64,000 nucleotides of DNA from an uncultured Ignavibacteriaceae bacterium (GTDB taxonomy: Bacteria; Bacteroidota; Ignavibacteria; UBA10030; BY39): the NCBI GenBank assembly GCA_964437735.1, contig CAYTID010000001.1:8169-72168 (forward strand), given 5' to 3'. Shown here piece by piece: positions 7,790-27,032 of this stretch. Numbering within the stretch: position 1 is the first letter of the stretch; each line of letters opens with the position of its first letter. The position numbers and the translations under genes are program-made. A model generated the notes under the pieces. That model did not search any database and had not been told where the DNA came from. It saw only the letters and a list, made by a program, of their open reading frames with translations.

Positions 7790-9475
7790 TTAACTACCGT
7801 ATTTTTCGATTTTTGCCCAGGTGTCACGAAGAGTTGTTGTCCGATTCAAGACTAAGATTTTATCTGTAGAATCCTTGTCAAAACAAAAATATCCCAATCT
7901 CTCAAACTGTAAATAATCTAATTTGTTTACATTAGCTAAAAACGGCTCTAACTTGCAATTCCTTATAATTTCAAGTGAATCAGGATTTATAAATTTTTTC
8001 CAATCATCGCCTGCTGGATCTTCCACCGTGAATAACCTGTCGTACAATCTAACTTCCGCTTCTAGAGCATGTTCAGCAGAAACCCAATGGATTGTACCTT
8101 TTACTTTCTTCTGACTTTCAGATAATCCGCTCCTTGTTAGGGGGTCATATGTGCAGTGGAGTTCTGTAATTTCTCCGGTTGTTTCATCTTTTACAACATT
8201 TGTACATTTAATTATGTAAGCATATTTCAAACGAACTTCATTTCCCGGAGATAACCTGAAAAATTTTTTCGGAGGATCTTCACGGAAATCATCTTGCTCG
8301 ATAAAGAGATATTTCGAAAAAGGAATTTTTCTCTTCCCTTTTCCGGGATCTTCAGGATTGTTAACCGCATCCATTTCTTCGATGAGATCATCGGGATAAT
8401 TAGTGATTACAACTTTCAAAGGCTTTAGAACTGCCATTACCCGCTGAGCTCGTTTATTAAGATCAGAACGCAGGCTATCTTCCAGAGATGCAACATCAAT
8501 CATGTTTTCCCTTTTTGCAACTCCGACTCTGTCAGCAAATATTCTTATGGATTCAGGGCTATAACCTCTCCTTCTCAAACCGGAAATTGTTGGCATCCTT
8601 GGGTCATCCCATCCGTTAACATGTTTTTCTTCTACCAATTGAAGTAGCCTGCGCTTACTCATGACTGTATAAGTCAGATTAAGCCTGGCAAATTCAATTT
8701 GTTGCGGATGATACACACCTAGTTCATCAATAAACCAATCGTATAATGGTCTGTGGTCTTCAAATTCAAGCGTACAAATCGAATGAGTAATTCCTTCAAT
8801 CGAATCACTCAAGCCGTGTGCCCAGTCGTACATCGGATAGATACACCAATCATCACCGGTCCGGTGGTGAGTTGATCGGAGAATTCTATACATAACTGGA
8901 TCTCTCATATTCAGATTCGGAGAAGACATATCAATTTTCGCACGGAGCGTTCGGGATCCATCCGGGAATTCACCTTTTCGCATACGCTCAAATAAATCAA
9001 GATTTTCTTCAACAGATCGATTTCTGAACGGACTTTCTTTCCCGGGCTCGGTCAATGTTCCCCGATACTCGCGTGTTTGATCGGCTGTTAAATCACAAAC
9101 ATATGCCTTCCCTTTTTTAATAAGTTGTAATGCATAGTCGAATAATTGTTGGAAGTAATCCGAAGCATAAAATTCTCTGTCTCCCCAATCAAATCCGAGC
9201 CAATGCACATCTTCCTTAATCGATTCGACATATTCAAGTTCTTCTTTACTTGGATTGGTATCGTCGAATCTTAAATTGCAAAATCCATTATAATCGTTCG
9301 CAATCCCAAAATTTAAGCAGATTGATTTTGCGTGTCCGATGTGGAGATAACCGTTTGGTTCGGGAGGAAAACGTGTATTAACGCGTCCATTAAATTTATT
9401 TGTCTTTAAATCTTCATCAATAAATTCACGTATAAAATTTCGCGGTTTTGAATTTTCGTTCTTGTTATTTTCCAT
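7790..9475 (-). CDS. glnS: Glutaminyl-tRNA synthetase
   Basis: Class I HIGH motif region ([17 protein letters not shown]), a KMSKS-like VMSKR motif and GlnRS-type C-terminal anticodon-binding domain. 561 aa. Confidence 0.9.
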
Positions 9476-9479
9476 ACTT

Positions 9480-10943
9480 TTATATTTTTAGCCTTTCTAT
9501 CGCGGTATGAATTCTTTTAATAGTTTCTTCCTTACCGAGGATGTATAAAATATCGTAAAGTCCCGGACCGCCCCCGACACCCGATACCGATAAACGGCAA
9601 GCATGAATCAGTTTCCCGGTACCGATATTTAAAATCTCTGCAGTCTTCTGTAAAGCTTTTTCATAATCCTCCTTAGAAGGATTTACCAATTTTGAAAACT
9701 CTTCCTCTAATTTTTTCAATTGCTCCGGAGTTTCCGGCTTCCATCTTTTTTTCACGACTTCGGGATCATATTCGGTCGGGGATTCAAAAAAGTACGGACT
9801 TTTTTCCGGAAAATCTTTTACAAAAAAAGCTCTCTCGCGCATTGCATCTATCACTTGCATTAAAAAAAAGTCATTATAGATATTATTTTTGAATTTTGAT
9901 CTTGATAATTCTTCTTTTAATAAATTTAATACATCGTTTTCAGATTTTCTTCTCAAATGTTCAAAGTTTAACCAATTCAATTTTTCTAAATTAAAAACCG
10001 CGCCGGCTTTATTAACTTTTTCCAAAGAAAATTGTTCTATCAAATCATGAATTGTAAAATATTCCTGTTCAGTGCCGGGATTCCAGCCGAGCATCGCAAC
10101 AAAATTTATCAAAGCTTCTTTCAAATACCCTTTATCCCGATAATCTTCAACGGCAACATCACCTTGGCGCTTGCTGAGTTTGCTCCGGTCGGGATTCAAG
10201 AGAAGAGGAAGATGTGCGAGATTAGGCATTTCCCAACCTAAATATTCATACAAAAGTAAATGTTTCGGCACACTCGGAAGCCACTCCTCACCACGTATAA
10301 TATGAGTGATACCCATCGTATGATCATCTATTACATTAGCCATGTGATAAGTAGGAAATCCATCAGATTTTATCAACACTTGATCGTCGATGATATCACT
10401 TGATATTTCCACTTCATTACGAATAAGGTCATAAAATTTGATCAGACGATTATCAGGTATTTTCATCCTTATAACATATGGAATACCCGTTTCTAATTTG
10501 GAATCAATTTCATTTTGTGTTAATAAAAGGCAGCGCTTATCATATTTCGGAAAATTTTGATTCTTTTCCTGGTTTTTCCGCATTTCGTCGAGTCGTTCAC
10601 TCGTACAAAAACATCGATATGCATAACCATCATTAATTAATTGGGCAGCATACTTTTTATAAAAATCTAAGCGTTCTGATTGCATATAAGGACCAAATCC
10701 ACCCTCCTTACCCGGTCCTTCATCAAAATCTAGTCCTGCCCACCTGAGCATTTTTATTAAATTTTCAACAGCGCCTTCTACATATCTGCTTCTGTCAGTA
10801 TCTTCAATCCTTAGGATAAATGTACCATTGTTTTTTCTGGCAAAAAGGTAATTATATAACGCCGTCCGAAGTCCGCCGACGTGAAGGTAACCTGTTGGAC
10901 TTGGGGCAAATCGGACTCTAATTTTATCTGTTTTCATTTGCAA
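9480..10943 (-). CDS. gltX: Glutamyl-tRNA synthetase
   Basis: [28 protein letters not shown] (HIGH region) and KLSKR motif. 487 aa. Confidence 0.9.
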
Positions 10944-13334: not shown

Positions 13335-13362
13335 TTTGTAATAATTTATAATTTATTATAAT

Positions 13363-13396
13363 AAAAAAAAACCTCTCCGATTATTCACCGAAGAGG
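13363..13396 (-). terminator. Rho-independent terminator ending the 13.4-24.8 kb surface-protein operon
   Basis: Stem cctctccg/cgaagagg (8 bp, 1 mismatch) at 13372-13396. On the minus strand it is followed by U9 (A9 on plus at 13363-13371). Confidence 0.55.
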
Positions 13397-13421
13397 TTAA
13401 TATTTTCCGGGTTCGAATAAT

Positions 13422-14516
13422 TTATCTATCTGTCGATAAACGGAATCTTCTTACCATATTGTTGCCGCTATCTGCGACATATAGTGTTTTTCCTAAGAAT
13501 GTAACTCCTTTGGGCGATTTGAATGAAGGTCTGTTTAAACTTGCCAGCATGCTTTTCCCGAACGATTCAGGTTTATATCTCCCTCTCCTGTCAAACTTTA
13601 CTAAACTATCAAGCGCCGAGTCAACCATAAATATATCAAGTCTTGCCCTATCGATTGTTACAGATGTCGCTTCTTCAAATCTGGTTGGTTTTATGAAATC
13701 AATATATCTTTCTTCCGGTTTTGCAGGATTAAATTTGGGCAGCCAACCGTCAAATTCCGCATTTTTTTGATATATCATCCATAAAGCCCCATATATAATC
13801 TGTCCATCGGCTGAACTCTGACTCAAAACAAAATCATTACTATTCGGAAATGTAACTATACCTGTTGTCCGTAAAATATCGGTAATTCCTGAACCTGCAC
13901 GAGTCGATAAATCACCCACTGGCGTTATTAATTTATCATTACTTCCAAACAATAATACCCTTGTGTCGGGATCAATGAAACTGGCATTATCGGCTCCATC
14001 GCGAACGACTAGATATTGATTGTTCTGAAGGAGTCCAATTCCTCGAAATCTTCGTCTTGGTTTAGCGGTTTCCCGATATATTGTATCTAACCTTGCCTGT
14101 GCGAGATGGTGAGCCGCTTCGAATAATTTTATTCTGAAAATTGCTCCAATAGTATCACCGTTTGCGGGATTGATCATCTCACCCGAAACAAGTAAATCTA
14201 ATCGAAGGTCTTGTGATATCGCGATGGGTTTTAAGATTGATCTGGTTTCTAATATTACACCAGCTTCGTTCATTTGAATAATTCGGTTATTATCAGTATC
14301 TGCGATATAGATAAGCTGGTCGTACCCGGCAAACAGTGCCGTAGGATTATTAAATCCTGTAAATGGTGGAACAATTTCAATATATGTTGTATCACCAACA
14401 TTAATAATCGTTCCAACCGGTAAATTGGCAAGATCAAATTTTTCCTGACATCCGATAGCCAAAAATGTAATCAGGATGATTGTGATTGTTGAAATTTGTT
14501 TAATTTTTTTTCTCAT
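13422..14516 (-). CDS. Lipoprotein with NHL-type beta-propeller repeats
   Basis: Lipobox LAIGC after the signal peptide. Repeated LY(I/V)ADxxNNR(I/V) motifs (LIYIADTDNNRIIQM, LYVADSGNNMVRRF). Confidence 0.6.
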   Translation of the reverse strand: MRKKIKQISTITIILITFLAIGCQEKFDLANLPVGTIINVGDTTYIEIVPPFTGFNNPTALFAGYDQLIYIADTDNNRIIQMNEAGVILETRSILKPIAISQDLRLDLLVSGEMINPANGDTIGAIFRIKLFEAAHHLAQARLDTIYRETAKPRRRFRGIGLLQNNQYLVVRDGADNASFIDPDTRVLLFGSNDKLITPVGDLSTRAGSGITDILRTTGIVTFPNSNDFVLSQSSADGQIIYGALWMIYQKNAEFDGWLPKFNPAKPEERYIDFIKPTRFEEATSVTIDRARLDIFMVDSALDSLVKFDRRGRYKPESFGKSMLASLNRPSFKSPKGVTFLGKTLYVADSGNNMVRRFRLSTDR

Positions 14517-14523
14517 AATTCAA

Positions 14524-15549
14524 TCAATATGTAAATAGTAATGAAATTCTGTGAACACCGCCTAAGCGGTTAAAATTAGCGTATGCATAGTCAACATTAA
14601 TTTTTGCAATACTTATTGGAACCTGAACTCCGCCACCAAGAGTTATATCTTCTTCAGACGTTCCATCTTTACCGAGTACCTTTTCACCGATAGTTCTTTT
14701 AAAACCGGCACGGACAAAAAACATTTCATTCCAGGAATATTCAGCGCCTAAACGTATATTTTCAGCGTTATCGTTCGGATGGTTCAACTGCACCGACGTT
14801 GTTATTCTTTGATTTTCTGTTTGTAATGGTTCGAATGCCAAACCCATTTTAAACATTGTAGGTGGTGAAAAAGATTGAAACTTATCGACTTCTGTTCCGT
14901 CATAAAGAGGAGCGCTTCCGGTTGGCGAAACATCATTCCCGAAATTGGAGACCACTACTGCAAAACGCATTGAACCTAAACCAGTCCAATAATAAGTTCC
15001 GAGATCTACGAGTACACTGCGCATCTTTAATACGTCCAAGGTTTCTTCAATATATTTAACGGTTGCACCAAAACTAAACTGATTTGTCAGTTGTCGTGAA
15101 TAAGTAAACCCTAAAGCCAGGTCACTGTATCTAAACATCCTTCCTGTTCCAAACGGATTTGTTTCGTTTGTAACTTTCATATCATCAGTAGTTAGTGAAA
15201 TCAAACTCACGCCGATAATATCGGATGAGGTAAGCTTATACGCTGCGCCTACGAAATTGTGATTGATATCGGCAACATAACTTGTGTGAGAAAGAATAAG
15301 CTGATTCCCCGGAATGCTTACCAAGCCTGCCGGATTCCAGAAAAGAGCTGACGCATCGTTAGCAACTGCAACAAACGATTCTGCGTATGCAGTAGCTCGA
15401 GCATCGACTCCGATTTTTAAAAACTGATAAGCGGAAATACCGACTCTCTGTCCGCCCAAGTTAGGAATTAATTGTGAAAATACACATGTCTGCATTAAAA
15501 CAATTGCTGAAAATAAAATTAAGATTCTCTTGTATTTACTTTTATTCAT
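14524..15549 (-). CDS. FadL/PorV-like outer-membrane beta-barrel (hydrophobic-compound channel family)
   Basis: Signal peptide. N-terminal ...ARATAYAESFVAVANDASALFWNPAGL resembles the conserved FadL-family N-terminal hatch region with its NPA motif. C-terminal aromatic residue (…LLFTY). Confidence 0.55.
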   Translation of the reverse strand: MNKSKYKRILILFSAIVLMQTCVFSQLIPNLGGQRVGISAYQFLKIGVDARATAYAESFVAVANDASALFWNPAGLVSIPGNQLILSHTSYVADINHNFVGAAYKLTSSDIIGVSLISLTTDDMKVTNETNPFGTGRMFRYSDLALGFTYSRQLTNQFSFGATVKYIEETLDVLKMRSVLVDLGTYYWTGLGSMRFAVVVSNFGNDVSPTGSAPLYDGTEVDKFQSFSPPTMFKMGLAFEPLQTENQRITTSVQLNHPNDNAENIRLGAEYSWNEMFFVRAGFKRTIGEKVLGKDGTSEEDITLGGGVQVPISIAKINVDYAYANFNRLGGVHRISLLFTY

Positions 15550-15568
15550 TTATCAATCCTTAAAATTT

Positions 15569-18420
15569 TTAAAACCTGAATGATATACCAAGTTTATAAG
15601 TTCGTGGATTCAGATATCGCGCCGGATTATACGGGAATGGTTCGATAGGCGCTGTTAAATCAGGATATAACGGATCATTCCAGTCAAAGGGTGTCTCCTG
15701 ACCATACTCATAAGCCGTACCGGTAACAGGATTTATTATTTGTGAGTTTTTATTATTCAGTACGTTTTGTATTTCAAACGATAATACAAATTTACCAAAA
15801 CCTAAATTCAAATATTTTTCAATATTCATATCGATGTAAAACCAGTTACTTCCAATTTGACTGAATGGATTTTCCCGGTCTCTCCTGTATTCCGGTCTCC
15901 CGGTAATCGGATCATATCTATTAAAAATATAAGGTGTATATCTTTTACCTGATTGGAAGAATAGTCTGGTGTAAATATTATAATCGTCTAAAATTCCGTT
16001 TCCGAAATCGAACAATGCTTTATTTTTGGCGACGTAAAAATTGATATTAGCCGAACCCTGGAAAGGACGATCCCAAACAACATAGCTTTCTTTCAGATTT
16101 TCTTCCAGCCCTTGCTGTATGTTGAACGCCGATTCATTTGCAGATGAACTCTTTCCTGTAGCAATACTGTACGAACCGGATAGTGTAGCTCTGATCATTT
16201 TGCCGATTCTCGTCTTGTATTCTAATTCGAGACCTCTTATTCTTGCATAGTCCTGATTTATATAAATAGTGTAAAAGCCGCGTGTCGTACCCGAAATGAT
16301 TGCGCGAAATTGTTTTGCAGTGATATAATCGAAAATATCTTTATAATATGCGGTTACTGTAAAGACGTCGTTTTCTGTTATTTGATTTCTTAAACCAAGT
16401 TCGTAAGCAACTGTAGTTTCAGGGTTAAGATTTGGATTTCCGATAGTTTGAAATGATGATCTTGATTTTGATCCTTTTAATTTAGCATAAACAAACTGAG
16501 GACGCGGCAATTTCGAAAAATGTCCATATGAGAAAAATAATGTTTGGTTATCGGTTACAGGATGAGAAATTCCTAAACGTGGACTAATACGGGCTTTCCA
16601 ATTTTGTCCGAATAATTTATAGCTCTCCTTCAAATAATTTTCTTGGATAACTTTGGGAACTAAAACCGCGGTTTCATTCTTGATCGCATCGTCAACATAC
16701 TTTCCTGGGAACCAGTAATCCATACGTAAGCCGAAATTCAATATCATTCCACTCATCTTTATTGCATCTTGAGCATAGATAGCTCCAAACGCCGGATATA
16801 CGCTATATATATCATTATCAAAACCTAACGGTCGTATCCATGGTTGATGTATATCCACAAGCTGCATATCCTGGAAACGCATTTCAATTCCGGATTTAAT
16901 TTTGTGTGCGTCCGACGGGTTGCTTGTAAGATCAAATTTTATTGTCCATTCATTCAATGAATGATCCCGCCATGTGGATGGAGATCCATAATCGAAAAAT
17001 CCATCACCGGGTATTATATATACAGTATCCCTTGAATTCGGATTTGGAAAGAAATATTCAACGGGATAAGTTACAATGTCTTTAGGTTCCTGATACTGAT
17101 CCCATAACCTACCGTTCGCATCACCACGGACGTGAGCAGAATAAAAACTGACTCTAAAATCATAGAAAGTTTTTGTGCTTAGTGTGTGAGTCAGATTAAA
17201 ACTTTGTTGTTGATTTATTTGAGTGAATGTATTTGCGCTATCGGGTATGTTCTGAAATAAAAACTGATAACCCGGATTTGGCTCTATCCTATCCAATGTT
17301 GCTTGAATCGCCTGTGAGTTTTGATCTATCTGAACGCTTTGGCTGAAAGTATATCCAAGTTTGATTGTACCGATCGGTCTGTATGTTAATTTTCCTAATG
17401 TAGAATAACTATTACTCCTTCGCGGTGCAAACTTTGTTCCTTCATAAATTGATGAAAACAATCCTTTTGGGGCTAAAACTTTCCAGCCACTTGGTTGCCC
17501 CTTTTCTAGAATTTCAACCCATCTGGTATAACCATCTGTAAGGTTTGCATAAAAATTTGTGAAAAAACTAATCTTGCCAGGTATTTCTATCCCCACAGCC
17601 GGGAGAATAAAAGTTGTTAAAGGTTCAGGTCCGGATAAATTAAATTCATATACACTGGTATTAAAATTCGAGACTGAGTTTTTATTAAATCCAAGATTAT
17701 CTCGTTTGTGCCCTAAAGATCCGGAAAAATTTGATGTTCCTTCTTTTGTTGTGATATTCACAACGCCGGATGTAGCCTGGCCATATTCGGCATTATATCC
17801 TCCGGTTAATACCTCGACTTCTGCTATTGCCTGAGGTGCGATTTGCAAACCAAATCCTCTGCCTGCTAAAGGATCCTGCACAGAGACACCATCGATAAGG
17901 TATGCGTTTTCGTAACTTCTGCCTCCACGTATATGAATTTCATTATCAGATTGAACAACACCTGTTTGCAGCGACACAACATCACGGACGTCCTTTACGA
18001 CAGCCATCTGTATATCTTCACTCGTTATCGCTCTGCGGCTTCCGGTTTCCTCAATGTTAAATAATGGTTTCTCACCGATAATAATAACCTCTTGTCCGAC
18101 TGTCAATACCGTTTCTTCTAATTTTACATTCAGGTTAGTTGCTTCATTCGGATTGATTTTAATTCCGGTGTTTGAACCTGCTTATAACCAAGAAGCGTAA
18201 TTTCAACAGTGTAAGATCCGGGAGTTATATTTGTTATTGTAAATTTCCCATCGAAATCAGTTGCCGCACCGTAATATGTTCCTTTTATAATAACATTTAC
18301 ACTTGGCAGTGTCTCGTTAGTAGCTTTATCAACAACTTTTCCGGACAAAGTTCCTTTATATTGAGCGAGAAGAAACTGTGTACTAAATATAAAAAACAAA
18401 ATAACTAATAATTTTTTCAT
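15569..18420 (-). pseudogene. TonB-dependent receptor (CarboxypepD_reg-like N-domain, plug, 22-strand barrel) interrupted by a 1-nt frameshift
   Basis: The 96-aa ORF 18130-18420 has a signal peptide and the CarboxypepD_reg motif (GKVVDKATNETLPSVNVIIKGTYYGAATDFDGKFTI). The 845-aa ORF 15569-18106 has the plug (AITSEDIQ...IRGG...YLIDGV) and barrel, with C-terminal ...ISFRF. The two frames overlap at 18130-18181. Adding one A to the A4 run (T4 on the plus strand at 18157-18160) gives the continuous sequence ...YKQVQTPELKINPNEATNLNVKLEETVLTVGQEVIIIG. Confidence 0.7.
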
Positions 18421-18461
18421 AGAGTTTTATTCTAATTTATTTTCAATTTCTATTCTAATTA

Positions 18462-20246
18462 CTAACCGCCAAATTCATCAATGAACACACGTTTAAGAAA
18501 AGCGGGAACACCCTGCCCCTTCACACCCGGACGATCGGTCCATACCTTGTCATAACCGTTCATAAGGTGCAATGGTAAACTTAAAAACACAAAACTTTTT
18601 GCATCATCCATAACTCCAATATTTACACGCCCGGTCCAGAATGCTGCCGGTGGTACTCGACCCGGTACTGGTGGTATTGATAAAATATATTTTGCATCGG
18701 CTCTTTTTATTATGGCGCGAACGTTTAATGAATGTGATCCGCCTTGAGTCGCTGTCGGATTGAATCGTAAAGTTGGAAAAGGTTGTGCAAAACTTACAGA
18801 ATCGGGATAAATGGGCCAATCATTGGGTATTCTTGTATCGATTAAAACAGAACCTATCATATCGACAGGCGCAAAATCAACCAGCGAGCCTCTTGGATCG
18901 CCAAGCCAATTTCCGAACCGCGTTGAATATAAAACTTTTCCTCCTGAACCATTATAAAGGTAAAGTGGAAATTGTGCTATAGCGTGTATGTGAAAATAGT
19001 TATCGGGAATAAAATCAGTAAACCAGAATACAAAATCAAATAATTTAAGAGTCCTTACAAATTGCGGATTAAGGAATTGTGGAACCATTACTCCGGCAGC
19101 TTTGTCAGTCGAGCCGCGGCGTATATCGAGCATATCGAAATTACCAAAATTCCTTGGTGAGCCAATCCCCGGGAATGTATCAATGGCAGCAAAAGCTGAT
19201 TTGTAAAATCCGATGACAGTACTCAAATCTGAAGCTCCATAATTTATTACCGTCAGCAGTTTGCTTGAAGGTTTTTTGACAAACCATTTCCTTGAACCTT
19301 CCGGTAGGGATACTGCCGGACTGAGTTCACCCGCCACATCTTTGGCTTGTAAATAAATTTTATTTGTATCATTCAATCTTAAACCGGGAAGTTCACCGAT
19401 TTTTAGCATAGTCGGAAAAATACCTATATAAACATCTGCAATAACTTCCCCAGTAGCATTATCGGTTCTTGAACGCGGTGCCTCTATTGTAACCATTGTT
19501 TGAGTCGAAGAAAATTCAAACCACTTGGAATTATCATTCGGATTATTCAGGTTAATGCGATAATTTTTTATTGTATTATCGCCATCTAGATCTTTTCCTA
19601 CCCATGAAAATGTTGCGACCGTATAAGTAGTTTCCGGTTGCTGAATTGTTTTGGGCGGATCTGTCGGATTGTTTGGATCAGATGCTTTAGCAAATTCAAC
19701 AATCGGTGGTGAATTTTTTATCGGAAAAATCTGCTTCGCTCCTTTAGAGTCGATAGCGGTGGTAATACCCGATAAATCTACATCCTCACCATCAAGTATT
19801 CCGTTATTATTTTTATCCCAGTAGGGTTTTGGTATAAATCTGATGGTAGCTCCAACATCAATATTCCCCCGGAAGGAATTATCTACAGCTTTTATTACAA
19901 CCTGATACTTTTCTCTCGCTGAAAATAATGGAAATGCTACGAGCGAATCGTTTTTAATTACCCAACTATATCCGACGGTATCGAAAGAGATAGCTGTAAA
20001 CGGACTATCGACTTTGAAATAAGCAAAAAGATATCCTTTAATAAAACCGTCCGGATCTTCGCCCCACCATCTGATGATTTGACGACTGATTGTCGGATTC
20101 AACGTTTGTGTGGAATCTGTTTGAATCCACAAAAATGTTTTTGGCGGAACATTGGGTTTTAAATCGATCGGACTTTCTTTTTTACAGCCAGTATAAAAGA
20201 TCGATAATAGAATTAATATTGGGAGTATTTTTTTAAAATCTGACAT
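18462..20246 (-). CDS. Large hypothetical lipoprotein (about 595 aa)
   Basis: Start chosen at MSDFKKILPILILLSIFYTGC (lipobox), with GGAG 8 nt upstream. No recognised domain. Confidence 0.5.
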   Translation of the reverse strand: MSDFKKILPILILLSIFYTGCKKESPIDLKPNVPPKTFLWIQTDSTQTLNPTISRQIIRWWGEDPDGFIKGYLFAYFKVDSPFTAISFDTVGYSWVIKNDSLVAFPLFSAREKYQVVIKAVDNSFRGNIDVGATIRFIPKPYWDKNNNGILDGEDVDLSGITTAIDSKGAKQIFPIKNSPPIVEFAKASDPNNPTDPPKTIQQPETTYTVATFSWVGKDLDGDNTIKNYRINLNNPNDNSKWFEFSSTQTMVTIEAPRSRTDNATGEVIADVYIGIFPTMLKIGELPGLRLNDTNKIYLQAKDVAGELSPAVSLPEGSRKWFVKKPSSKLLTVINYGASDLSTVIGFYKSAFAAIDTFPGIGSPRNFGNFDMLDIRRGSTDKAAGVMVPQFLNPQFVRTLKLFDFVFWFTDFIPDNYFHIHAIAQFPLYLYNGSGGKVLYSTRFGNWLGDPRGSLVDFAPVDMIGSVLIDTRIPNDWPIYPDSVSFAQPFPTLRFNPTATQGGSHSLNVRAIIKRADAKYILSIPPVPGRVPPAAFWTGRVNIGVMDDAKSFVFLSLPLHLMNGYDKVWTDRPGVKGQGVPAFLKRVFIDEFGG

Positions 20247-20315
20247 TAGTTTCTCCATAATGAGCGAAACATAGTTATCCCGGTGATTAGCCGGGATAAC
20301 TATCATTATTTTCTT

Positions 20316-22568
20316 TTACTTAACCAGAACCATTTTCTTTATTTGTGAAAATTTACCTGCTTGCAAGCGGTAAAAATATAGCCCTGATGATAATTTTGAA
20401 GCATCAAATGTAACCGAATAAATTCCCGGTTTTTGAATTTCATTTCTGAGCGTTGTAATCTCTTGTCCGATTACATTATAGATTTTCAGTGTAACTAATT
20501 CTTCCCTCGGTACTGCGTATTCGATAACCGTTTTGGGATTGAATGGATTCGGATAGTTGTTGGAAAGAAAATAATTATCCGGAATTATATTCGACATATC
20601 ATCTCTTACACCGACAGGAGGCGTATATATTCCGAAGTCAGCATTAGTTCTTGGTACAATTTTATAACGATTGAAACTATAATAAACAATACCACGAATG
20701 TAGCTAAATCTACCGCCAACCCTTATAACAGTAACGCCGGGAAATATTGTATCACCGGGAACATTCGAAAATGTGTTTAAGCCTTCCCTTAATATATTCG
20801 CATCGGAAGTACCGTCTGTAACACTATATTCCCAGGGATTTCCAAAAACCGGATCGATGCTTGTCACGGTAACATTATTAAACTGAACGAGCATTCCTTC
20901 CCATGGTTCGGCATTTAAATCTCCGTTTCCGGCATTCGCACCGAACGTTGCAGTTGTCCGGACCACCGGTGCAGGTACCGGATTCCCTGTGTTAAACCAT
21001 TGGACTGCTGAGACGTTGCCAATTCTGGTTACGTCAAAATTTTCTTGTATAGTACCGGTTACTGCGACACTGTCACCTTTTCTCAGCCTTTTTAAAGTAT
21101 CAATAATTCCTGTTACCCATATACCGCTTGAAGGTGAATTTCCTGATTGCATATACCAAGCTGTTGTGCCGCCACTGCCGCTTCTGGCGGTAAGTACCAG
21201 ATCGCTGGTATCAGCTGAAACGATTCCTCTTACAGATGTTACAGCTCCGGTATAAGGACTACGACCATTAGTGTAGGGCGTATTTTGAACATCGTGAATG
21301 GTCAGTGTACCTGTCGTCACTTTGTAGAAATGAAAACCCTTCGATGTATCATTACCCGCACCACCACCGGCACCGCTTGCTGAAATTGTGAAATTACCTT
21401 CTGTATCTGTTGCTTTTAAGAAATATTTAACAAAAGTACCTAACGGTTGGATTGGAATTTCGCCCCTGTAAAGAGTATCTCCTGTAACCATTGTCATGTT
21501 AACTGTGACAAATGGGTTATTATTTAGACTATAAAGCAATTGCCTGCTTGCAATCGGTTTACCACCGGGTGTAGCTTTAAAGATTGCTTCAACTTTTGTG
21601 GTACTATCTGTTGTAACTATTACGGGATATCGCCTTACAGTTGTGAGTGTTGGTCGGGAAATACCTCGTATCACATCACCTCGGTATATTGGGCAAATTC
21701 TATAACCACGGGCGTTTTCACTACCGGAATTGCTTGATATGAATCCACGAATCGTATCAACTCTTGAGAAAGTCTGCATTAACCAGTGCGTAGTATCATA
21801 TGTGCTGGTAGGATCTCTATGACCTCTTAACGTCCACCATTTTGAGACGTCAAGTGTAGATATCATGTTACCAAAATCATCAACAAGATTCACCGTTCCG
21901 TTTGCCGTATTCAGTCGTCCCGCTACAGTAAGATTAGTTAATTCAACATATGCACCTTCATAAGGTTCACCTGTTGAAAATTTTATTTTTCCTCCCGGAA
22001 AAATTCCTTCATAAAAATCAGATGTATTTAATTTATATTTTGGTGGAGTATTTGCGCTACCGATAATATTAAAATTTGGTTCCCGTAATGGTACAAATTG
22101 AGTGGAGCTGCTTATTCCATTTGTACTTCCAACCGGGAATTCATCTACCCAACCAACGACTTCAACGATATCTCCTACTTCAACATTCAACATTGATTGA
22201 AAAAAAACAGTATCCGGTGAACCGGTACTTAATGGTGCGCGCACAAACATATGTCCCCAAGGCCCGCTATACCCGGTATCAGCTAATACAAAATTATAAC
22301 CACTCGAAGTAAAGTTTATAACTTTAGCAGGAACCGTACAAACACCGACTATCTTCACAGTATCCCTTGGATTAGTTGGACGATAAAATGCAGACGCTTG
22401 AATTGTCCATCGTGTTGGCTGACTATTCTGAATCTGATCCGCAATCAAAAGTGAATCCGGGTGAACATATTGAATTTGTCTTATTGCTCTATAGGGGTAC
22501 TGAATTTGAGTTTCGCTTATGTAGATAAACGAAATTGTTAATATAAGAAATACTAAAAATTTTTTCAT
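20316..22568 (-). CDS. Secreted protein with type IX secretion system C-terminal sorting domain (T9SS cargo); function unknown
   Basis: Signal peptide. The C-terminus ...GLYFYRLQAGKFSQIKKMVLVK matches the Por_Secre_tail pattern. Confidence 0.7.
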   Translation of the reverse strand: MKKFLVFLILTISFIYISETQIQYPYRAIRQIQYVHPDSLLIADQIQNSQPTRWTIQASAFYRPTNPRDTVKIVGVCTVPAKVINFTSSGYNFVLADTGYSGPWGHMFVRAPLSTGSPDTVFFQSMLNVEVGDIVEVVGWVDEFPVGSTNGISSSTQFVPLREPNFNIIGSANTPPKYKLNTSDFYEGIFPGGKIKFSTGEPYEGAYVELTNLTVAGRLNTANGTVNLVDDFGNMISTLDVSKWWTLRGHRDPTSTYDTTHWLMQTFSRVDTIRGFISSNSGSENARGYRICPIYRGDVIRGISRPTLTTVRRYPVIVTTDSTTKVEAIFKATPGGKPIASRQLLYSLNNNPFVTVNMTMVTGDTLYRGEIPIQPLGTFVKYFLKATDTEGNFTISASGAGGGAGNDTSKGFHFYKVTTGTLTIHDVQNTPYTNGRSPYTGAVTSVRGIVSADTSDLVLTARSGSGGTTAWYMQSGNSPSSGIWVTGIIDTLKRLRKGDSVAVTGTIQENFDVTRIGNVSAVQWFNTGNPVPAPVVRTTATFGANAGNGDLNAEPWEGMLVQFNNVTVTSIDPVFGNPWEYSVTDGTSDANILREGLNTFSNVPGDTIFPGVTVIRVGGRFSYIRGIVYYSFNRYKIVPRTNADFGIYTPPVGVRDDMSNIIPDNYFLSNNYPNPFNPKTVIEYAVPREELVTLKIYNVIGQEITTLRNEIQKPGIYSVTFDASKLSSGLYFYRLQAGKFSQIKKMVLVK

Positions 22569-22582
22569 TTTAAATCTCCTTA

Positions 22583-24754
22583 TTATTTAATTATTAAAAA
22601 CTTACCTATTTTCACATTCTCTGTCTCATGATCTTTAACGCTATATAAATATAATCCTGTGGCAATAGTCTGATCATGCTTTGTTATCAGATCCCACGCG
22701 TGTTCGCCGCCTGAGAATTGCGGGTTAACACGTAAGGTCTCAAATTTTCTGAACCATTCAATATCGGATCCGTCGTATGTAGATGCATTATGTTCAATAG
22801 TTTTTACAATATCACCGGCGAGTGTATATATGCGGATCTCGCATCTTGCCGGTAAATTGTAAAATATTATTTTTCTGTTCCTCTCGCCTCCGGTTCCACC
22901 TTCCCAATATGCGCTTGTATAATAGGGGTTGGGGTAAACACCGATTTCAGTGTTATTGTCGGATGTAGCTTTTGTTCCTGCAATAACCCGTTTGAGAACT
23001 TTGGAGCTTTCTAATATTGGTAAATTATTTGCGGAATCTCCTCTGTCAAATGCGGTAACACCATAAACATACTGCCAACCATTCAGGTGAGTTAAGTTCA
23101 TATCTGCGGGGGGAAAACGATACCAATAATCAACAGTATCGCCAGGAAATCTTTTGGGTTCTTGCAATAATATTTTCGATAATCCGACATTGAAACCAAT
23201 ATTATTCCCCGGTAAATCATATTCACCGGCTAATGTCATCTTGAAAATCAAATCTTCGGGCGCCGTTATATCAGCCCCTGCATTACTTCTGTATATTCTG
23301 TATCCCTCAAAATCTTTTAATTGTGTGATCGGATCAACTGACTCTTCGGCTGTGTGTTTATTCCAGTAAATTACTACTTCATTATCCGAGACGTCAGCCC
23401 GAACTTTCGGTCGGCGCGGAGGTTGGGGTAAGCTGTATCTGTCCAAAATACCATTACCATTAAAATCTTCCCAGGGTTGTAAAATATTGTCGCCGTTTGT
23501 ATCTTCGCCGTCGTAGGTTTTCTGTGCCCAGCCGAGATTATTCAGTAAAGTTGAACGTTGTTCAGGTGTGTCGAATCGTGCATGGTCTGAGCCGTATTTT
23601 TTTGCCGTAACAATACCAAAAATAACCTGCAAACTGTCCCCCGGAAACATTGTTACGAAAGGTCCTGTTGATAAAAGTAAAGTAGCATTCCGTGCGCTTG
23701 TGCGTAACGCATCGATCTTACTTTTAGGATACATTGTAGTTGTCATCCGAGCATATCTGTTTTGCCATCGGGTGGGAGGACTTCCATCATCTGCATCTTC
23801 AAGTCCAGGTGAGAAATATTCTGGCTCTCCTGAACTTGTCCGAAAAGTCCACGCATTAAAATAGTTTTTTTTTGATAAATCAAGTAAAGAATCTACACCT
23901 TTAGGAAATCTATTTGTCCCAAGAAGCTTCATAGCAATGTAACTATTTGCCGGTGGTCCCTGATTGTTCCCATCATAATCAAAAGCGTATGCCATACGCT
24001 GCACGGAATCATAGCCTGTCGCAACGTTAAAATAACCGCTTGTTCCGGGTCTTACAAAATTTGTGTTACGGACAACAAAATTATTCCACAAACCGACGTA
24101 TACAGAATCGAGAGTGTCCCTGACTGTAATTCCTGTTGCCGGATGTCTGTACCCTGTATTATAAAACGTATAGCTTACTATCACAAAGAAATCTGCGGTT
24201 GGAAGATTCCATGCATAACTTTCTTGTTTTATCTTAATTCCAAGAGGGAGATGATATGGGATGCTATCTCCAGTAACAGGATCACGTTTGTATGCGTCGG
24301 TATAATCGCAAATAAAATCTAATTCACTCACTGCGTTATCTGTCGGTAATCCTGAAAACGGGTCAATCGAACGCTTTGTTATTGAAGCGCCCTGTTCCGA
24401 TGTAAATTCGTAATGTCGTCCGGTAACTCCGCTTAATGATTGATCCGTGGCACCTGTACTCACTCCGGCTCGACCTTCTAGCCTGGATATCGCACCAAAC
24501 CAGATTCCGCCTTGATATAAGTGTTCTATTCTTGATCCTTTTGGATATTCAGCCGAAAATTGCTGAGGCCAATTGGAATTTCTCGCTCCGAGAGTTCCGT
24601 AATTTGTAACTGTTAACTGAAGATTTCCAACATTCACTACCTGTCGTTGATCTTTATCGGTGTTTTTTTGCAATCTGAAATCGGTTGCCTGCTCCTGAGA
24701 AAAAGACGCAAGTGTGAATACACTGAATAATGACAAAATGAGAAGTATACGCAT
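22583..24754 (-). CDS. Secreted hypothetical protein with a probable T9SS C-terminal domain
   Basis: Signal peptide MRILLILSLFSVFTLASFSQ. C-terminus ...GLYLYSVKDHETENVKIGKFLIIK is CTD-like. 15 nt from the next gene. Confidence 0.55.
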   Translation of the reverse strand: MRILLILSLFSVFTLASFSQEQATDFRLQKNTDKDQRQVVNVGNLQLTVTNYGTLGARNSNWPQQFSAEYPKGSRIEHLYQGGIWFGAISRLEGRAGVSTGATDQSLSGVTGRHYEFTSEQGASITKRSIDPFSGLPTDNAVSELDFICDYTDAYKRDPVTGDSIPYHLPLGIKIKQESYAWNLPTADFFVIVSYTFYNTGYRHPATGITVRDTLDSVYVGLWNNFVVRNTNFVRPGTSGYFNVATGYDSVQRMAYAFDYDGNNQGPPANSYIAMKLLGTNRFPKGVDSLLDLSKKNYFNAWTFRTSSGEPEYFSPGLEDADDGSPPTRWQNRYARMTTTMYPKSKIDALRTSARNATLLLSTGPFVTMFPGDSLQVIFGIVTAKKYGSDHARFDTPEQRSTLLNNLGWAQKTYDGEDTNGDNILQPWEDFNGNGILDRYSLPQPPRRPKVRADVSDNEVVIYWNKHTAEESVDPITQLKDFEGYRIYRSNAGADITAPEDLIFKMTLAGEYDLPGNNIGFNVGLSKILLQEPKRFPGDTVDYWYRFPPADMNLTHLNGWQYVYGVTAFDRGDSANNLPILESSKVLKRVIAGTKATSDNNTEIGVYPNPYYTSAYWEGGTGGERNRKIIFYNLPARCEIRIYTLAGDIVKTIEHNASTYDGSDIEWFRKFETLRVNPQFSGGEHAWDLITKHDQTIATGLYLYSVKDHETENVKIGKFLIIK

Positions 24755-24863: not shown

Positions 24864-27032
24864 TTAAACTTCCCCATCAGAAAATATTTTTATGATCTGA
24901 CCGATATCGATATTGTCGTCTTTAAAATTATTCCATTTTTTTAATTGATCGATAGTGACATTGTATTGGCTGGCGATTCGGAATAAAGTATCACCTTTTT
25001 TTACTTTATACTCTACGTAATTTTTATTATTTATTTCTTTAGAATCCGATTTGATTTTCACATCGCTCTTTTCAGCGGTGTCGGGTGAAATATAAATTTC
25101 TAGTTTCTGACCGGAAATTATTTTGTTTTTCCTGATTCCATTCCAATTTTTAATATCCCGAACTGTTACTCCATATTTTTCCGCGATTATCCCGAGGCTC
25201 TCGCCGGATTTAATAATATGTGTGGTCCAATATGATTTTTGAGATTTTTTTGATGAAGCGGATTGTTTTTTATTTTTATTTTCCGAAGCGAGATTTTCTT
25301 CGACTAAATCTCTTTCGTCCGTTGGAATAAATATATCTATGGTTGCATCTGTTCGGAGATGTTTACCGTATGGAATATCATTCCATATTCTCAGGTCACT
25401 AACACGCACATTGTATTTTTTTGCAATTTCGCTTAAGGTGTCGCCTTTGCGAACCTTGTAACTAATTTTTGAACTCCCTTTATTTGTAAATTTTTTAGCA
25501 ATTGATTTTTTATTTTCAGATTTTGTAATCCCCTGATCCTGTGAAATTGTTCTCGCTAAATTTTTTGATGTTAACGGAATTATCAACGTAGTTCCGGCGG
25601 ATAGTTTTTTCTTAACAGATATATTATTCGCCTCGGCTAAAACACTTTTCGTCAATCCGTATTTTTTTGCAATCCTTCCTATGGTTTCACCTTTTTTAAC
25701 CTGATGACTTATGAGAGTTTTCTTTTTCTCTGCAGGGACTTGAGCGTACTGTTCAGCAAAAAACGCTGATGTTCCGGCCGGAATCTTAAGTTTATAACCT
25801 TTATAATTCGGCGGTGTATATCCTTGAATAAGTTCAGAATTTAAATCAGAAAGTATTTTGGTATTTGTACCGGCACATTCAGCCAGAATACTCAGGTCGA
25901 CGCAATCATCTATCGATACAATATCATAAACAAGAGGAATATCCGGCTCAATGAAGAAGCCGTATTTGTTAGGATTCATTGCGATCACAGCAGCTGCAAT
26001 GTATTGTGGAACATAGTTACGGGTTTCACGCGGTAAATTTTTTCTAAGGTACCAAAAAACTTTGTTCCCGGATTTTCTTATAGCAGATTTTACTCTCCCT
26101 GCACCCGAATTATAAGCAGCAATCGCAAGATGCCAATCGTTAAATTCAATATATAAATCTCTAAGATGTTGGGCTGCCGCACGGGTAGCTTTATCGACAT
26201 CACGTCTCTCATCGTACCATAAATTTCCATCAAGTCCATACAACTTACCGGTACCTTTTATAAATTGCCATATCCCTACAGCCTTTGCCCATGACCTTGC
26301 AGTCGGATTCAAACCACTTTCGATCATTGATAAGTAAATTAATTCCTCAGGAACACCTTCTTCAGCAAAAATACGTTTCATGGTCGGAAAATATTTTCCT
26401 GACCTGAACAGCCATTTCTCCATATGATGCCTCCCTTTACCAACAAAATAATCGATGTACATCTGAACGAACCCGTTGATAACAAGAGGAACTGAAAAAC
26501 CTGTTATAATATCTCGAGTCCGGAACTGTTCGGGATTCTCTACACCCTCTAAAAGTTGATTCAATTTTTCACGAAGTGCAAAAATGGATGATTGATCTCC
26601 TAAGCTGTCGATATTTGCTATATAGTTTTCATAATCCTCGATAATACTTAAACTCAGATCGTTAAAATCCTGATTTGTTTCGATACCGGGATAATAACTG
26701 AGTTCGTTAAGTATATTTATAGCGGATTCAAACTCATTCGCGCATTTCAAGGAATCGCCGGAAGTTTCGGCTGCCAGTGCAGAGATATAATGCCGGCGTA
26801 CGCTTTCCAGGTTCTGGTTTAAAACCGGATCGCCACTATCGCCATTTTCCAGGTATATATTTGAAGTATCCGATGGCTGTAAATTTACATCGGAAATATT
26901 TGACGAAATTTCAGAAATATTGGAATTTGAAGAATTGAAACTTGAGTCCTGCTTGTTTCTTGTAGTCTCTTTACCGACACATCCATTCAATATCAAGGCA
27001 ATGATAAAAACAATTATATAGCGTAACAACAT
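24864..27032 (-). CDS. mltD: Membrane-bound lytic murein transglycosylase D-like (SLT domain plus multiple LysM domains)
   Basis: SLT catalytic region ([25 protein letters not shown]) followed by at least three LysM repeats ([18 protein letters not shown]..., [18 protein letters not shown]..., [18 protein letters not shown]...). Confidence 0.8.

What the first reader, a model, noticed from the sequence alone, without database searches (positions are those of the whole stretch)
13363..24754. Approximately 11.3-kb six-gene cell-surface operon: two T9SS-tailed proteins of unknown function, a large lipoprotein, a TonB-dependent receptor, a FadL/PorV-like barrel and an NHL-propeller lipoprotein
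Genes at 22583-24754, 20316-22568, 18462-20246, 15569-18420, 14524-15549 and 13422-14516 are co-directional. They are separated by only 7-41 nt and followed by a single intrinsic terminator at 13363-13396, so they form one transcription unit.

Every product is envelope-targeted. Two carry type IX secretion C-terminal tails but no recognisable catalytic domain. One is a roughly 600-aa lipoprotein with no known domain. One is a TonB-dependent receptor with a CarboxypepD_reg N-domain, and no SusD partner is present. One is a FadL/PorV-family barrel; PorV is itself a T9SS shuttle component. One is an NHL beta-propeller lipoprotein.

This is not a canonical polysaccharide utilisation locus (no SusD, no glycoside hydrolases). 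It looks instead like an uncharacterised surface capture/uptake module coupling T9SS-displayed binding proteins to an energised outer-membrane importer. It is the only clearly accessory block in the window.
Basis: partly seen in the sequence, partly recalled or inferred. Interest (0 to 1): 0.55.

Follow-up and report, generated by a model that had tools for sequence, protein, structure and literature searches.

The report
Conserved six-gene outer-membrane capture/uptake module
This is an undescribed six-gene outer-membrane gene cluster, kept in the same order in hundreds of Ignavibacteria and in at least two other phyla, that pairs an energised outer-membrane transporter with surface proteins and probably captures and imports a polymer, possibly extracellular DNA.

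Summary
The six co-directional envelope genes and the terminal terminator are real, but three details are wrong. The TonB-dependent receptor is split by a 1-nt deletion (about 18171/18172). The same gene is intact in 76 of 77 related loci. The B-C gap is 69 nt, not 41 or less, and holds a strong hairpin. Only protein B has a T9SS tail that passes family thresholds.

The block is not accessory. 305 species-level genomes encode a relative of C. In the 79 Ignavibacteria loci examined, 78 keep the order A-B-C-D-E-F. The same order occurs in a Marinimicrobia contig, a Calditrichota-type contig and two unassigned metagenome contigs.

Domain content:
- A: galactose-mutarotase-like supersandwich, FN3, divergent tail.
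- B: two ExeM/NucH-type OB modules, an Ig domain, T9SS tail.
- C: lipoprotein with FN3 domains and a non-catalytic GATase1-like domain.
- D: TonB-dependent transporter, not SusC-type.
- E: PorV/PorQ-family barrel.
- F: NHL propeller lipoprotein.

B's module recurs in a DUF5689/nuclease DNA-utilisation-type locus in Crocinitomix and on a PLD-type enzyme beside the Marinimicrobia cluster.

Best reading: a T9SS-linked, TonB-energised capture and import complex. The ligand is unproven; nucleic acid is the leading candidate and a glycan the main rival. I found no paper describing it. It is a new variant of a known kind.

The parts
22583..24754 (-). Gene A, 723 aa. It has an SPI signal peptide, a galactose-mutarotase-like supersandwich (about residues 75-415), a Ca-loop-like DxNGxN linker, an FN3 domain (about 450-600), and a long, highly conserved C-terminal beta-sandwich that resembles a T9SS tail (605-723).
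20316..22568 (-). Gene B, 750 aa. It has an SPI signal peptide and two copies of an ExeM/NucH-N-terminal-type OB module (22-305 and 418-650) separated by an Ig-like domain. It ends in a type-A T9SS C-terminal domain (672-747).
   Evidence: PF18962 and TIGR04183 above cut-off; NF033681 ExeM_NucH residues 447-570, E 4e-12. Internal duplication by hhalign, 99.3%, E 4e-20. In the 43-member family, OB-fold Pfam hits in 16 members and DUF5689 in 7 at E<=0.01, rising to 36 and 13 at E<=5.
20271..20303 (-). Perfect 13-bp stem with a 7-nt loop, 12 nt after the B stop and 24 nt before the C start, with no U-tail. A strong hairpin at this junction is conserved in position but not in sequence.
   Evidence: A hairpin of <= -15 kcal/mol follows B in 72% of loci, against 12-26% after A, C, D, E and F. 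49 of 54 such hairpins lack a U-tail.
18462..20246 (-). Gene C, a 594-aa lipoprotein (lipobox ...FYTG|C, then K-K-E). It has two or three FN3/Ig-like sandwiches carrying W-W-G-E-D-P-D-G type motifs, then a C-terminal class-I glutamine-amidotransferase-like (ThuA/GH42-trimerisation-like) domain with no conserved Cys.
18172..18420 (-). Gene D, 5' part: signal peptide plus the CarboxypepD_reg N-terminal extension. This frame runs on to a stop at 18130.
18169..18174 (-). Site of the 1-nt deletion that breaks gene D. The window reads CAA-ACA-CC where relatives encode Q-Y-T.
   Evidence: alignment with L003, L005-L008, L012. (76 of 77 relatives intact).
15569..18171 (-). Gene D, 3' part: a TonB-box-like QEVIIIG motif, plug and 22-strand-type barrel. 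The intact protein would be about 950 aa.
   Evidence: PF07715 and PF00593 above cut-off; no match of the barrel to TIGR04056 SusC/RagA. Plug similarity to Cir. Median 60% identity across loci.
14524..15549 (-). Gene E, 341 aa, a PorV/PorQ-family (FadL-like) outer-membrane barrel.
   Evidence: NF033709 223 bits (cut-off 90). The PorQ, PorV and PorV2 equivalogs are all below cut-off. PF19572 above cut-off. PorV chain 6h3i_F, E 1.6e-5.
13422..14516 (-). Gene F, a 364-aa lipoprotein with an NHL-repeat beta-propeller.
   Evidence: PF01436. Multi-repeat matches to PknD and Pizza NHL propellers, E down to 5e-21.
13360..13398 (-). Intrinsic terminator after F: a 12-bp stem followed by T9.
24864..27032 (-). 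Frequent upstream neighbour: an MltD-like lytic transglycosylase lipoprotein (SLT plus 4 LysM). It lies 109 nt upstream with no terminator between. Its membership of the module is uncertain.
   Evidence: Directly upstream of A in 28 of 47 loci with enough flank.

Best explanation
The cluster encodes a conserved outer-membrane capture-and-import complex.

Proposed mechanism:
- D is a TonB-energised channel.
- C, and possibly F, are lipoprotein partners of D.
- A and B are exported to the cell surface. B goes by the type IX secretion system; A probably does too.
- A and/or B are held at the surface by E. E is a PorV/PorQ-family barrel, and members of that family bind T9SS C-terminal domains.
- B supplies ligand capture through two ExeM/NucH-type OB modules. 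A (supersandwich) and C (FN3 plus GATase1-like domain) add further binding surfaces.
- The captured polymer, or fragments of it, is passed to D and pulled into the periplasm.
- The ligand I consider most likely is extracellular nucleic acid (about 0.35 on its own). A glycan is next.
- A hairpin after B probably sets a higher A/B to C-F expression ratio.

Shown:
- gene content, folds and domain homologies;
- conservation of gene order across phyla;
- the A-C and C-propeller fusions;
- the frameshift in this copy.

Inferred:
- all protein-protein contacts;
- surface exposure;
- direction of transport;
- the ligand.

In this window the transporter gene carries a 1-nt deletion. Here the module is either inactive or, more likely for a metagenome-assembled contig, mis-assembled at that base.
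For: Conservation and operon structure:
- A profile of C finds relatives in 305 species-level genomes.
- 78 of 79 loci are colinear, and 45 hold all six genes.
- The same order is found in a Marinimicrobia contig (L083), a Calditrichota-type contig (L084) and two unassigned contigs (L085, L086).
- In the five-gene variant L090 the genes are 2-4 nt apart.

The transporter:
- D has a plug, a barrel and a conserved TonB-box-like motif.

Fusions that link the parts:
- A(1-416) + C(178-593) + tail occur in one protein (P0023/P0024).
- In the variant without B, C is fused to a BNR/Sortilin-type propeller.

The T9SS link:
- E belongs to the PorV/PorQ family.
- B has a bona fide T9SS tail.
- A's tail region is unusually conserved, as expected for a tail that is retained and bound.

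Ligand lead (nucleic acid):
- B residues 447-570 match the N-terminus of ExeM/NucH extracellular nucleases, E 4e-12.
- OB-fold and DUF5689 hits recur across the B family.
- The same module heads a PLDc_2 enzyme next to the Marinimicrobia cluster.
- A close relative of the module (hhalign 99.4%, E 4e-21) sits in a Crocinitomix locus with an EEP nuclease, a 5'-nucleotidase, a barrel and two DUF5689 proteins.
- DUF5689 proteins paired with a TonB-dependent-type barrel mediate DNA utilisation in B. thetaiotaomicron and natural transformation in R. anatipestifer (PMC12478041, PMC8459023).
Against: - No nuclease, glycoside hydrolase, regulator or inner-membrane transporter is part of the conserved cluster.
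- B is dispensable in a sub-lineage, where a BNR propeller replaces it.
- B's OB modules are not basic: median pI 5.5-5.8.
- B's similarity to a genuine DUF5689 protein is weak: 38%, E 3e-4.
- D is not an orthologue of the barrel in the Crocinitomix DNA-type locus. Only the plug is similar, E 0.004.
- A's fold is typical of carbohydrate-active enzymes.
- The high conservation of A, D and E (54-60% across a class) and the core-genome position fit a machine at least as well as a nutrient importer.
- No interaction was tested.
Confidence: 0.45

Rival explanations
1. Glycan capture and import. This would be a SusD-less, T9SS-assisted polysaccharide or oligosaccharide uptake system. A (supersandwich), B (OB/CBM-like) and C would bind a glycan that D imports.
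For: - C's C-terminal domain resembles ThuA and the GH42 trimerisation domain.
- 7-13 B homologues give weak CBM_56 hits.
- The B-slot protein of L086 has a weak SusE hit.
- The BNR propeller that replaces B is a type common in glycan-active proteins.
- The A-C fusion paralogue lies next to a polysaccharide-synthesis cluster.
Against: - No glycoside hydrolase, lyase, SusD or sugar-responsive regulator is found in any of the loci examined.
- The supersandwich fold is not specific to sugars: the YidC periplasmic domain and amine oxidases also match.
- The significant sequence homology in B is to nuclease-associated modules.
Confidence: 0.2
2. This is not an importer but a T9SS-linked surface-assembly or attachment machine. 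A-E would be a counterpart of PorZ-PorQ, with a glycan-binding protein held by its retained tail in a FadL-like barrel. D would be a TonB-type barrel used for export or assembly, as proposed for Myxococcus Oar.
For: - E's best equivalog-level match is PorQ (101 bits).
- A's only family hit is the PorZ C-terminus.
- PorZ also appears, weakly, in the Foldseek list (rank 32).
- A, D and E are the most conserved genes.
- The cluster is in the core genome, often next to MltD.
- It occurs in FCB-group lineages (Ignavibacteria, Marinimicrobia, Calditrichota), the group in which T9SS is known.
- PorZ is described as a carbohydrate-binding supplier of A-LPS (PMC8754138).
Against: - E is below the cut-offs of PorQ (220), PorV (250) and PorV2 (325).
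- A has no propellers and scores 20.9 against PorZ's cut-off of 260.
- There is no PorU-like C25 peptidase in the cluster.
- Known attachment complexes contain no TonB-dependent barrel (general knowledge).
- D keeps a plug and a TonB-box-like motif typical of importers.
Confidence: 0.2
3. In this particular genome the module is a decaying remnant. The frameshift in D is real and the cluster no longer works.
For: One base is missing in the Tyr codon at about 18171/18172. The downstream 845-aa fragment has no signal peptide. One other locus (L032, a long-read assembly) is also split.
Against: - The other five genes, and the remaining 2.5 kb of D, carry no further lesions.
- 76 of 77 relatives are intact.
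- Single-base indels are common in metagenome-assembled contigs.
- No slippery site for programmed frameshifting is visible.
Confidence: 0.15

Closest known systems
Bacteroidota Sus-like polysaccharide utilisation loci ('utilisomes': SusC transporter, SusD lid, surface lipoproteins). Some include T9SS-secreted enzymes, for example the Flavobacterium johnsoniae chitin locus (from general knowledge).
   Same: A TonB-dependent barrel with a CarboxypepD_reg N-terminal extension is encoded together with several surface-targeted binding proteins and lipoproteins in one co-directional cluster.
   Different: There is no SusD. The barrel does not match the SusC/RagA model. There are no hydrolases and no regulator. 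A PorV/PorQ-type barrel and an NHL propeller lipoprotein are integral parts. The cluster is core and conserved across phyla, not strain-variable.
The ddbABCDEF DNA-utilisation loci of gut Bacteroidales, and the related Riemerella anatipestifer natural-transformation genes RA0C_RS04915/RS04920 (PMC12478041; PMC8459023).
   Same: Both are six-gene outer-membrane loci that pair a TonB-type barrel with a surface protein built from OB-like modules. B's module is homologous to a component of such a locus in Crocinitomix and to the N-terminus of ExeM/NucH nucleases.
   Different: No nucleases lie in the cluster. B is only weakly similar to DUF5689 itself. D is not orthologous to the barrel of the DNA-type locus. 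A, C, E and F have no counterparts there. B is anchored through T9SS rather than as a lipoprotein.
T9SS attachment-complex pairs PorQ-PorZ and PorV-PorU, and PorP/SprF-type barrels encoded next to their cognate cargo.
   Same: A FadL-like PorV/PorQ-family barrel is encoded with proteins that carry T9SS-type C-terminal domains. One tail (A's) is conserved as if it were retained.
   Different: E fails the PorQ, PorV and PorV2 equivalog cut-offs. A and B are unrelated to PorZ and PorU outside the tail. A TonB-dependent transporter and two lipoproteins are added.
BtuB-BtuG type complexes: a TonB-dependent transporter capped by a beta-propeller surface lipoprotein (from general knowledge).
   Same: A TonB-dependent transporter gene lies two genes upstream of a beta-propeller lipoprotein gene (F), in the same cluster.
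   Different: F is an NHL propeller, not a BtuG-family one. No cobalamin riboswitch or any other Rfam element precedes the cluster. Four further proteins are present.

Membership tests
TonB-dependent transporter | Plug domain plus a 22-strand barrel, above the Pfam cut-offs | tested here: met
   PF07715 48.7 bits (cut-off 23.9); PF00593 87.8 bits (cut-off 27).
TonB-dependent transporter | One intact ORF with a signal peptide | tested here: not met
   A 1-nt deletion splits the gene in this window. It is intact in 76 of 77 relatives.
SusC/SusD polysaccharide utilisation locus | SusC/RagA-type barrel (TIGR04056) | tested here: not met
   Only the 60-residue N-terminal extension matches TIGR04056 (48 bits against a cut-off of 368). 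The barrel does not match.
SusC/SusD polysaccharide utilisation locus | An adjacent SusD-family lipoprotein | tested here: not met
   No SusD family is found in any cluster gene here or in L001, L083, L084, L086 or L090.
T9SS cargo (type-A C-terminal domain) | A C-terminal domain matching PF18962/TIGR04183 above cut-off | tested here: met
   Protein B: 39.8 against 27 and 42.1 against 23 bits. All 43 family members match.
T9SS cargo (type-A C-terminal domain) | The same feature, for protein A | tested here: inconclusive
   No Pfam or TIGRFAM hit. PorZ C-terminus E 1e-4. hhalign to B's tail E 7e-4, probability 26%. The motifs YPNP...GxY...K are present in register.
PorV/PorQ family outer-membrane barrels | NF033709 above cut-off | tested here: met
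   E: 223 bits against a cut-off of 90.
T9SS components PorV, PorQ or PorV2 proper | Equivalog-level score | tested here: not met
   PorQ 101 against 220; PorV 89.5 against 250; PorV2 90.5 against 325.
T9SS attachment complex | PorU-type C25 sortase and a PorZ two-propeller protein | tested here: not met
   No C25 domain is found in the cluster. A scores 20.9 against PorZ's cut-off of 260.
ddb / R. anatipestifer DNA-uptake loci | A DUF5689 surface partner | tested here: inconclusive
   DUF5689 is hit by 7 of 43 B homologues at E<=0.01 (best 1.9e-5) but not by the window protein. hhalign of B against a DUF5689 protein gives 38%. The related module is present in a DUF5689 locus.
ddb / R. anatipestifer DNA-uptake loci | Secreted nucleases in the locus | tested here: not met
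   None of the six genes is a nuclease. The only candidate is a PLDc_2 neighbour in L083.
ddb / R. anatipestifer DNA-uptake loci | A DdbC-type barrel | tested here: not met
   D against the 840-aa barrel of the Crocinitomix DUF5689 locus shows plug-only similarity, E 0.004. The DdbC and RA0C_RS04915 sequences themselves were not available.
BtuB-BtuG type | Cobalamin riboswitch or BtuG-family propeller | tested here: not met
   No Rfam family other than two tRNAs is found in the window. F is an NHL-type propeller.

The most novel reading that the evidence does not exclude
The cluster is a T9SS-dependent outer-membrane DNA-capture and uptake machine, conserved in Ignavibacteria and found in a Marinimicrobia and a Calditrichota-type contig. 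It would be a second, structurally distinct solution to moving DNA across the outer membrane in pilus-independent FCB bacteria. It would be related to the Bacteroidota Ddb and natural-transformation systems only through its OB-module receptor.
Probability: 0.2. Interest if true: 0.8.

Novelty: new variant of a known kind. Interest (0 to 1): 0.6.

Why it matters
- If the model holds, it links two hallmark envelope systems of the FCB group, type IX secretion and TonB-dependent import, in one dedicated and ancient complex.
- It gives a first functional handle on several large families annotated only as 'hypothetical'. A profile of A matches 5297 representative clusters at E<=0.001. A profile of C finds relatives in 305 species-level genomes.
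- If the ligand is DNA, the module bears on nutrient cycling of extracellular DNA and on gene transfer in abundant uncultured sediment, soil and marine lineages.
- If instead it is a T9SS assembly device, it would show how lineages outside Bacteroidia attach cargo to the cell surface.

Tried and rejected
- Sequence searches of A, B and C (single sequences and profiles) against PDB gave nothing useful beyond the T9SS tail and weak Ig and nuclease-N hits.
- Foldseek of the A model against PDB gave only low-TM FN3 and GH94/GH116 N-domain hits.
- The AlphaFold-database library was unavailable.
- Pfam scans of distant A-family members added only T9SS tails and PKD repeats.
- Literature searches for the cluster itself found nothing.
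- A PorF lookup gave no usable description.
- The B-C palindrome does not recur in the window, so it is not a repeated element.
- Programmed frameshifting in D was rejected: there is no slippery heptamer, and relatives are in one frame.
- Horizontal acquisition ('accessory island') was rejected. G+C is 0.37-0.40 in the cluster against 0.36-0.38 in the flanks, the neighbours are housekeeping genes, and synteny is conserved.
- Catalytic GATase activity for C was rejected: no conserved Cys outside the lipobox.
- Homology between A's FN3 domain and C's N-terminal domains was not supported.
- No relatives of A, C, E or F were found in the Crocinitomix or Cloacimonadota loci.


Full report
OBSERVATION

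Six co-directional minus-strand genes occupy 13422-24754. I call them A to F:
- A: 22583-24754
- B: 20316-22568
- C: 18462-20246
- D: 15569-18420
- E: 14524-15549
- F: 13422-14516

A 12-bp stem followed by a T-run lies at 13398-13370, directly after F. All six products begin with a signal peptide, and C and F have lipoboxes.

Three points in the finding need correction.

First, D is not one ORF. The interval 15569-18420 is 2852 nt. The CarboxypepD_reg domain (18130-18420) and the plug plus barrel (15569-18106) lie in different frames. Alignment with close relatives, which read ...LLGYKTVQYTG[VI]K..., shows that the window lacks one base of the Tyr codon at about 18171/18172. In 76 of 77 related loci the gene is one uninterrupted ORF. 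No slippery site is present. This is therefore either an assembly error or a very recent lesion.

Second, the intergenic gaps are 14, 69, 41, 19 and 7 nt. The 69-nt B-C gap holds a perfect 13-bp stem with a 7-nt loop at 20271-20303 and no U-tail. Folding the whole gap gives -24.9 kcal/mol.

Third, only B has a T9SS C-terminal domain that passes the Pfam and TIGRFAM cut-offs. A's C-terminus has the right motifs. Its only matches are weak: PorZ C-terminus E 1e-4, and hhalign to B's tail E 7e-4 with probability 26%.

CONSERVATION

The opposite is true.
- C has more than 249 homologues and A more than 846. All are 'hypothetical' proteins from Ignavibacteria-type metagenome bins.
- A profile of C found relatives in 305 species-level genomes.
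- In the 79 distinct loci examined, 78 are colinear (A-B-C-D-E-F). 45 contain all six genes, and the remainder are mostly cut by contig ends.
- Median identities to the window proteins are A 54%, B 46%, C 40%, D 60%, E 59% and F 50%.
- The same order occurs in four other contigs: a Marinimicrobia contig (L083), a contig whose A protein clusters with Calditrichota sequences (L084), and two further metagenome contigs (L085, L086). Their B-slot proteins share B's architecture.
- An MltD-like lytic transglycosylase is directly upstream in 28 of 47 loci.
- The window's surroundings are housekeeping genes: carboxyltransferase, MnmA, RelA/SpoT, GltX, GlnS, NadA, MetH and others.
- G+C does not differ from the flanks.
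- A distant five-gene variant also lies next to gltX/glnS.

ANATOMY

B. This protein is a tandem duplication of a module of roughly 230-280 residues (hhalign 99.3%, E 4e-20). The two copies are separated by an Ig-like domain and followed by the T9SS tail.
- The second copy matches the first 116 positions of the ExeM/NucH extracellular-nuclease model (E 4e-12).
- Across 43 homologues, the nucleic-acid-binding OB-fold Pfam family is hit by 16 members at E<=0.01 and by 36 at E<=5. DUF5689 is hit by 7 and 13 members respectively.

D. This is a TonB-dependent transporter with an N-terminal extension, a conserved TonB-box-like QEV[IV][IV]IG motif and a plug. It is not of the SusC/RagA type.

E. E belongs to the PorV/PorQ family (223 bits against a cut-off of 90). 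It is below the cut-offs for PorQ, PorV and PorV2 themselves.

F. F is an NHL beta-propeller lipoprotein.

FUSIONS AND VARIANTS

- A paralogue (P0023/P0024, about 940 aa) joins A's supersandwich, C's residues 178-593 and a T9SS tail in one chain. This argues that A and C act together.
- In a sub-lineage B is missing and C carries a BNR/Sortilin-type propeller. The conserved core is therefore A, C, D, E and F, with an exchangeable distal module.
- In one contig (L089) the A-C fusion gene lies next to a polysaccharide-synthesis cluster.

A CONSERVED HAIRPIN

A strong stem-loop (<= -15 kcal/mol in 45 nt) follows the stop codon of B in 72% of loci (median -21 kcal/mol). The figure is 12-26% after A, C, D, E and F. 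The sequences differ between loci, and 49 of 54 such hairpins lack a U-tail. This is a position-conserved RNA feature. It could attenuate transcription or stabilise the upstream A-B mRNA segment. The claim of a single, uniformly expressed transcription unit is therefore unproven.

THE FUNCTIONAL LEAD

Two papers mention DUF5689.
- In B. thetaiotaomicron, the six-gene ddbABCDEF locus is required for depletion of exogenous DNA. It contains nucleases, a TonB-dependent transporter (DdbC) and a DUF5689 protein (DdbD). DdbD is predicted to sit on DdbC and resembles the DNA-binding HIN domain (PMC12478041 and its bioRxiv version).
- DdbC and DdbD are homologous to R. anatipestifer RA0C_RS04915 and RS04920, which are essential for natural transformation (PMC8459023).

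I then followed B's module into other genomes.
- It heads a PLDc_2/dockerin protein immediately downstream of the Marinimicrobia cluster.
- It is widespread as short [module + T9SS tail] proteins. JGI calls some of these 'predicted extracellular nuclease'.
- In Crocinitomix algicola, one such protein lies in a locus with a 5'-nucleotidase, an EEP nuclease, an 840-aa barrel and two DUF5689 proteins. It matches B by hhalign at 99.4%, E 4e-21.

These results link B's module to nucleic-acid handling by homology and by genomic association.

Several observations count against the DNA reading.
- B is only weakly similar to a DUF5689 protein itself (38%).
- D shares only plug similarity with the Crocinitomix barrel.
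- A, C, E and F have no counterparts in those loci.
- B's modules are not basic (pI about 5.5-5.8).
- The conserved cluster holds no nuclease.

INTERPRETATION

The best-supported model is a TonB-energised capture-and-import complex. Its distal parts are delivered by T9SS and anchored by a PorV/PorQ-type barrel. I give this overall model about 0.45.

The ligand is unproven. Nucleic acid is the leading candidate and a glycan is the main alternative. A's and C's folds, the weak CBM and SusE hits, and the BNR swap all point towards a glycan.

A serious rival is that the cluster is a T9SS-linked surface-assembly or attachment device, analogous to PorQ-PorZ. The high conservation of A, D and E and the core-genome position fit that reading. 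The equivalog tests for PorQ, PorV and PorZ were not met, and no PorU-like sortase is present.

All contacts, the localisation and the direction of transport are inferences.

NOVELTY

I found no description of this cluster, and no curated family covers A or C. In kind it is a TonB-dependent surface capture system. In composition it is new: TonB-dependent transporter, PorV/Q barrel, NHL lipoprotein, FN3-GATase1-like lipoprotein, supersandwich protein and a tandem OB-module T9SS cargo. It is also unusually ancient and stable. I rate it a new variant of a known kind, with interest 0.6.

Noticed in passing
window 18169-18174: A single-base deletion splits the TonB-dependent receptor gene into 96-aa and 845-aa ORFs. 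The gene is intact in 76 of 77 related loci. It is probably an assembly error or a very recent pseudogenisation.
   Followed up: yes
window 20271-20303, and the equivalent position in L001-L082: A strong hairpin without a U-tail lies directly after gene B's stop codon. It is conserved in position in 72% of loci, but its sequence differs between loci. It may attenuate transcription or stabilise mRNA within the cluster.
   Followed up: partly
L014 8720-11557; L089 8001-10823: A paralogue of about 940 aa fuses A's supersandwich, C's C-terminal two-thirds and a T9SS tail. In L089 it lies directly downstream of a polysaccharide-synthesis cluster (GT9, GT1/GT4, Wzx-type flippase, deacetylase).
   Followed up: partly
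L023, L028, L058-L060, L062, L070, L074, L090: A five-gene variant of the cluster lacks B and has C extended by a BNR/PSII_BNR/Sortilin-type propeller (about 870-890 aa). In L090 the genes are only 2-4 nt apart.
   Followed up: partly
L087 713-8350 (Crocinitomix algicola): A locus resembling the published DNA-utilisation and natural-transformation loci. It holds a 5'-nucleotidase, an EEP nuclease, an 840-aa barrel without Pfam hits, two DUF5689 proteins and a T9SS-tailed protein homologous to B's OB module.
   Followed up: partly
L083 21414-22214 and beyond: Next to the Marinimicrobia copy of the cluster lies a 1035-aa protein. Its N-terminus is B's OB module, followed by Pur_ac_phosph_N, PLDc_2 and dockerin-like hits. 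It may be a secreted phosphodiesterase or nuclease.
   Followed up: partly
window 58345-60645 (-): An M1-family aminopeptidase with a T9SS type-A C-terminal domain. It is a second T9SS cargo in the window and shows that the organism uses type IX secretion.
   Followed up: no
window 30405-31076 (-): A Schlafen/AlbA_2-domain protein lies between housekeeping genes (a SpoU methylase and a monofunctional transglycosylase). It is a better candidate for an accessory gene than the cluster under study.
   Followed up: no
window 51-4675 (-): A 1007-aa TPR-rich protein with YfiO/BamD-like and Slam-TPR-like hits, followed by a 534-aa ORF with no Pfam family. This is another uncharacterised envelope pair.
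   Followed up: no
window 7790-10943 and L090 18753-20619: gltX and glnS lie a few kb downstream of the cluster both in the window and in a relative whose C protein is only about 42% identical. This indicates long-range synteny around the cluster.
   Followed up: no
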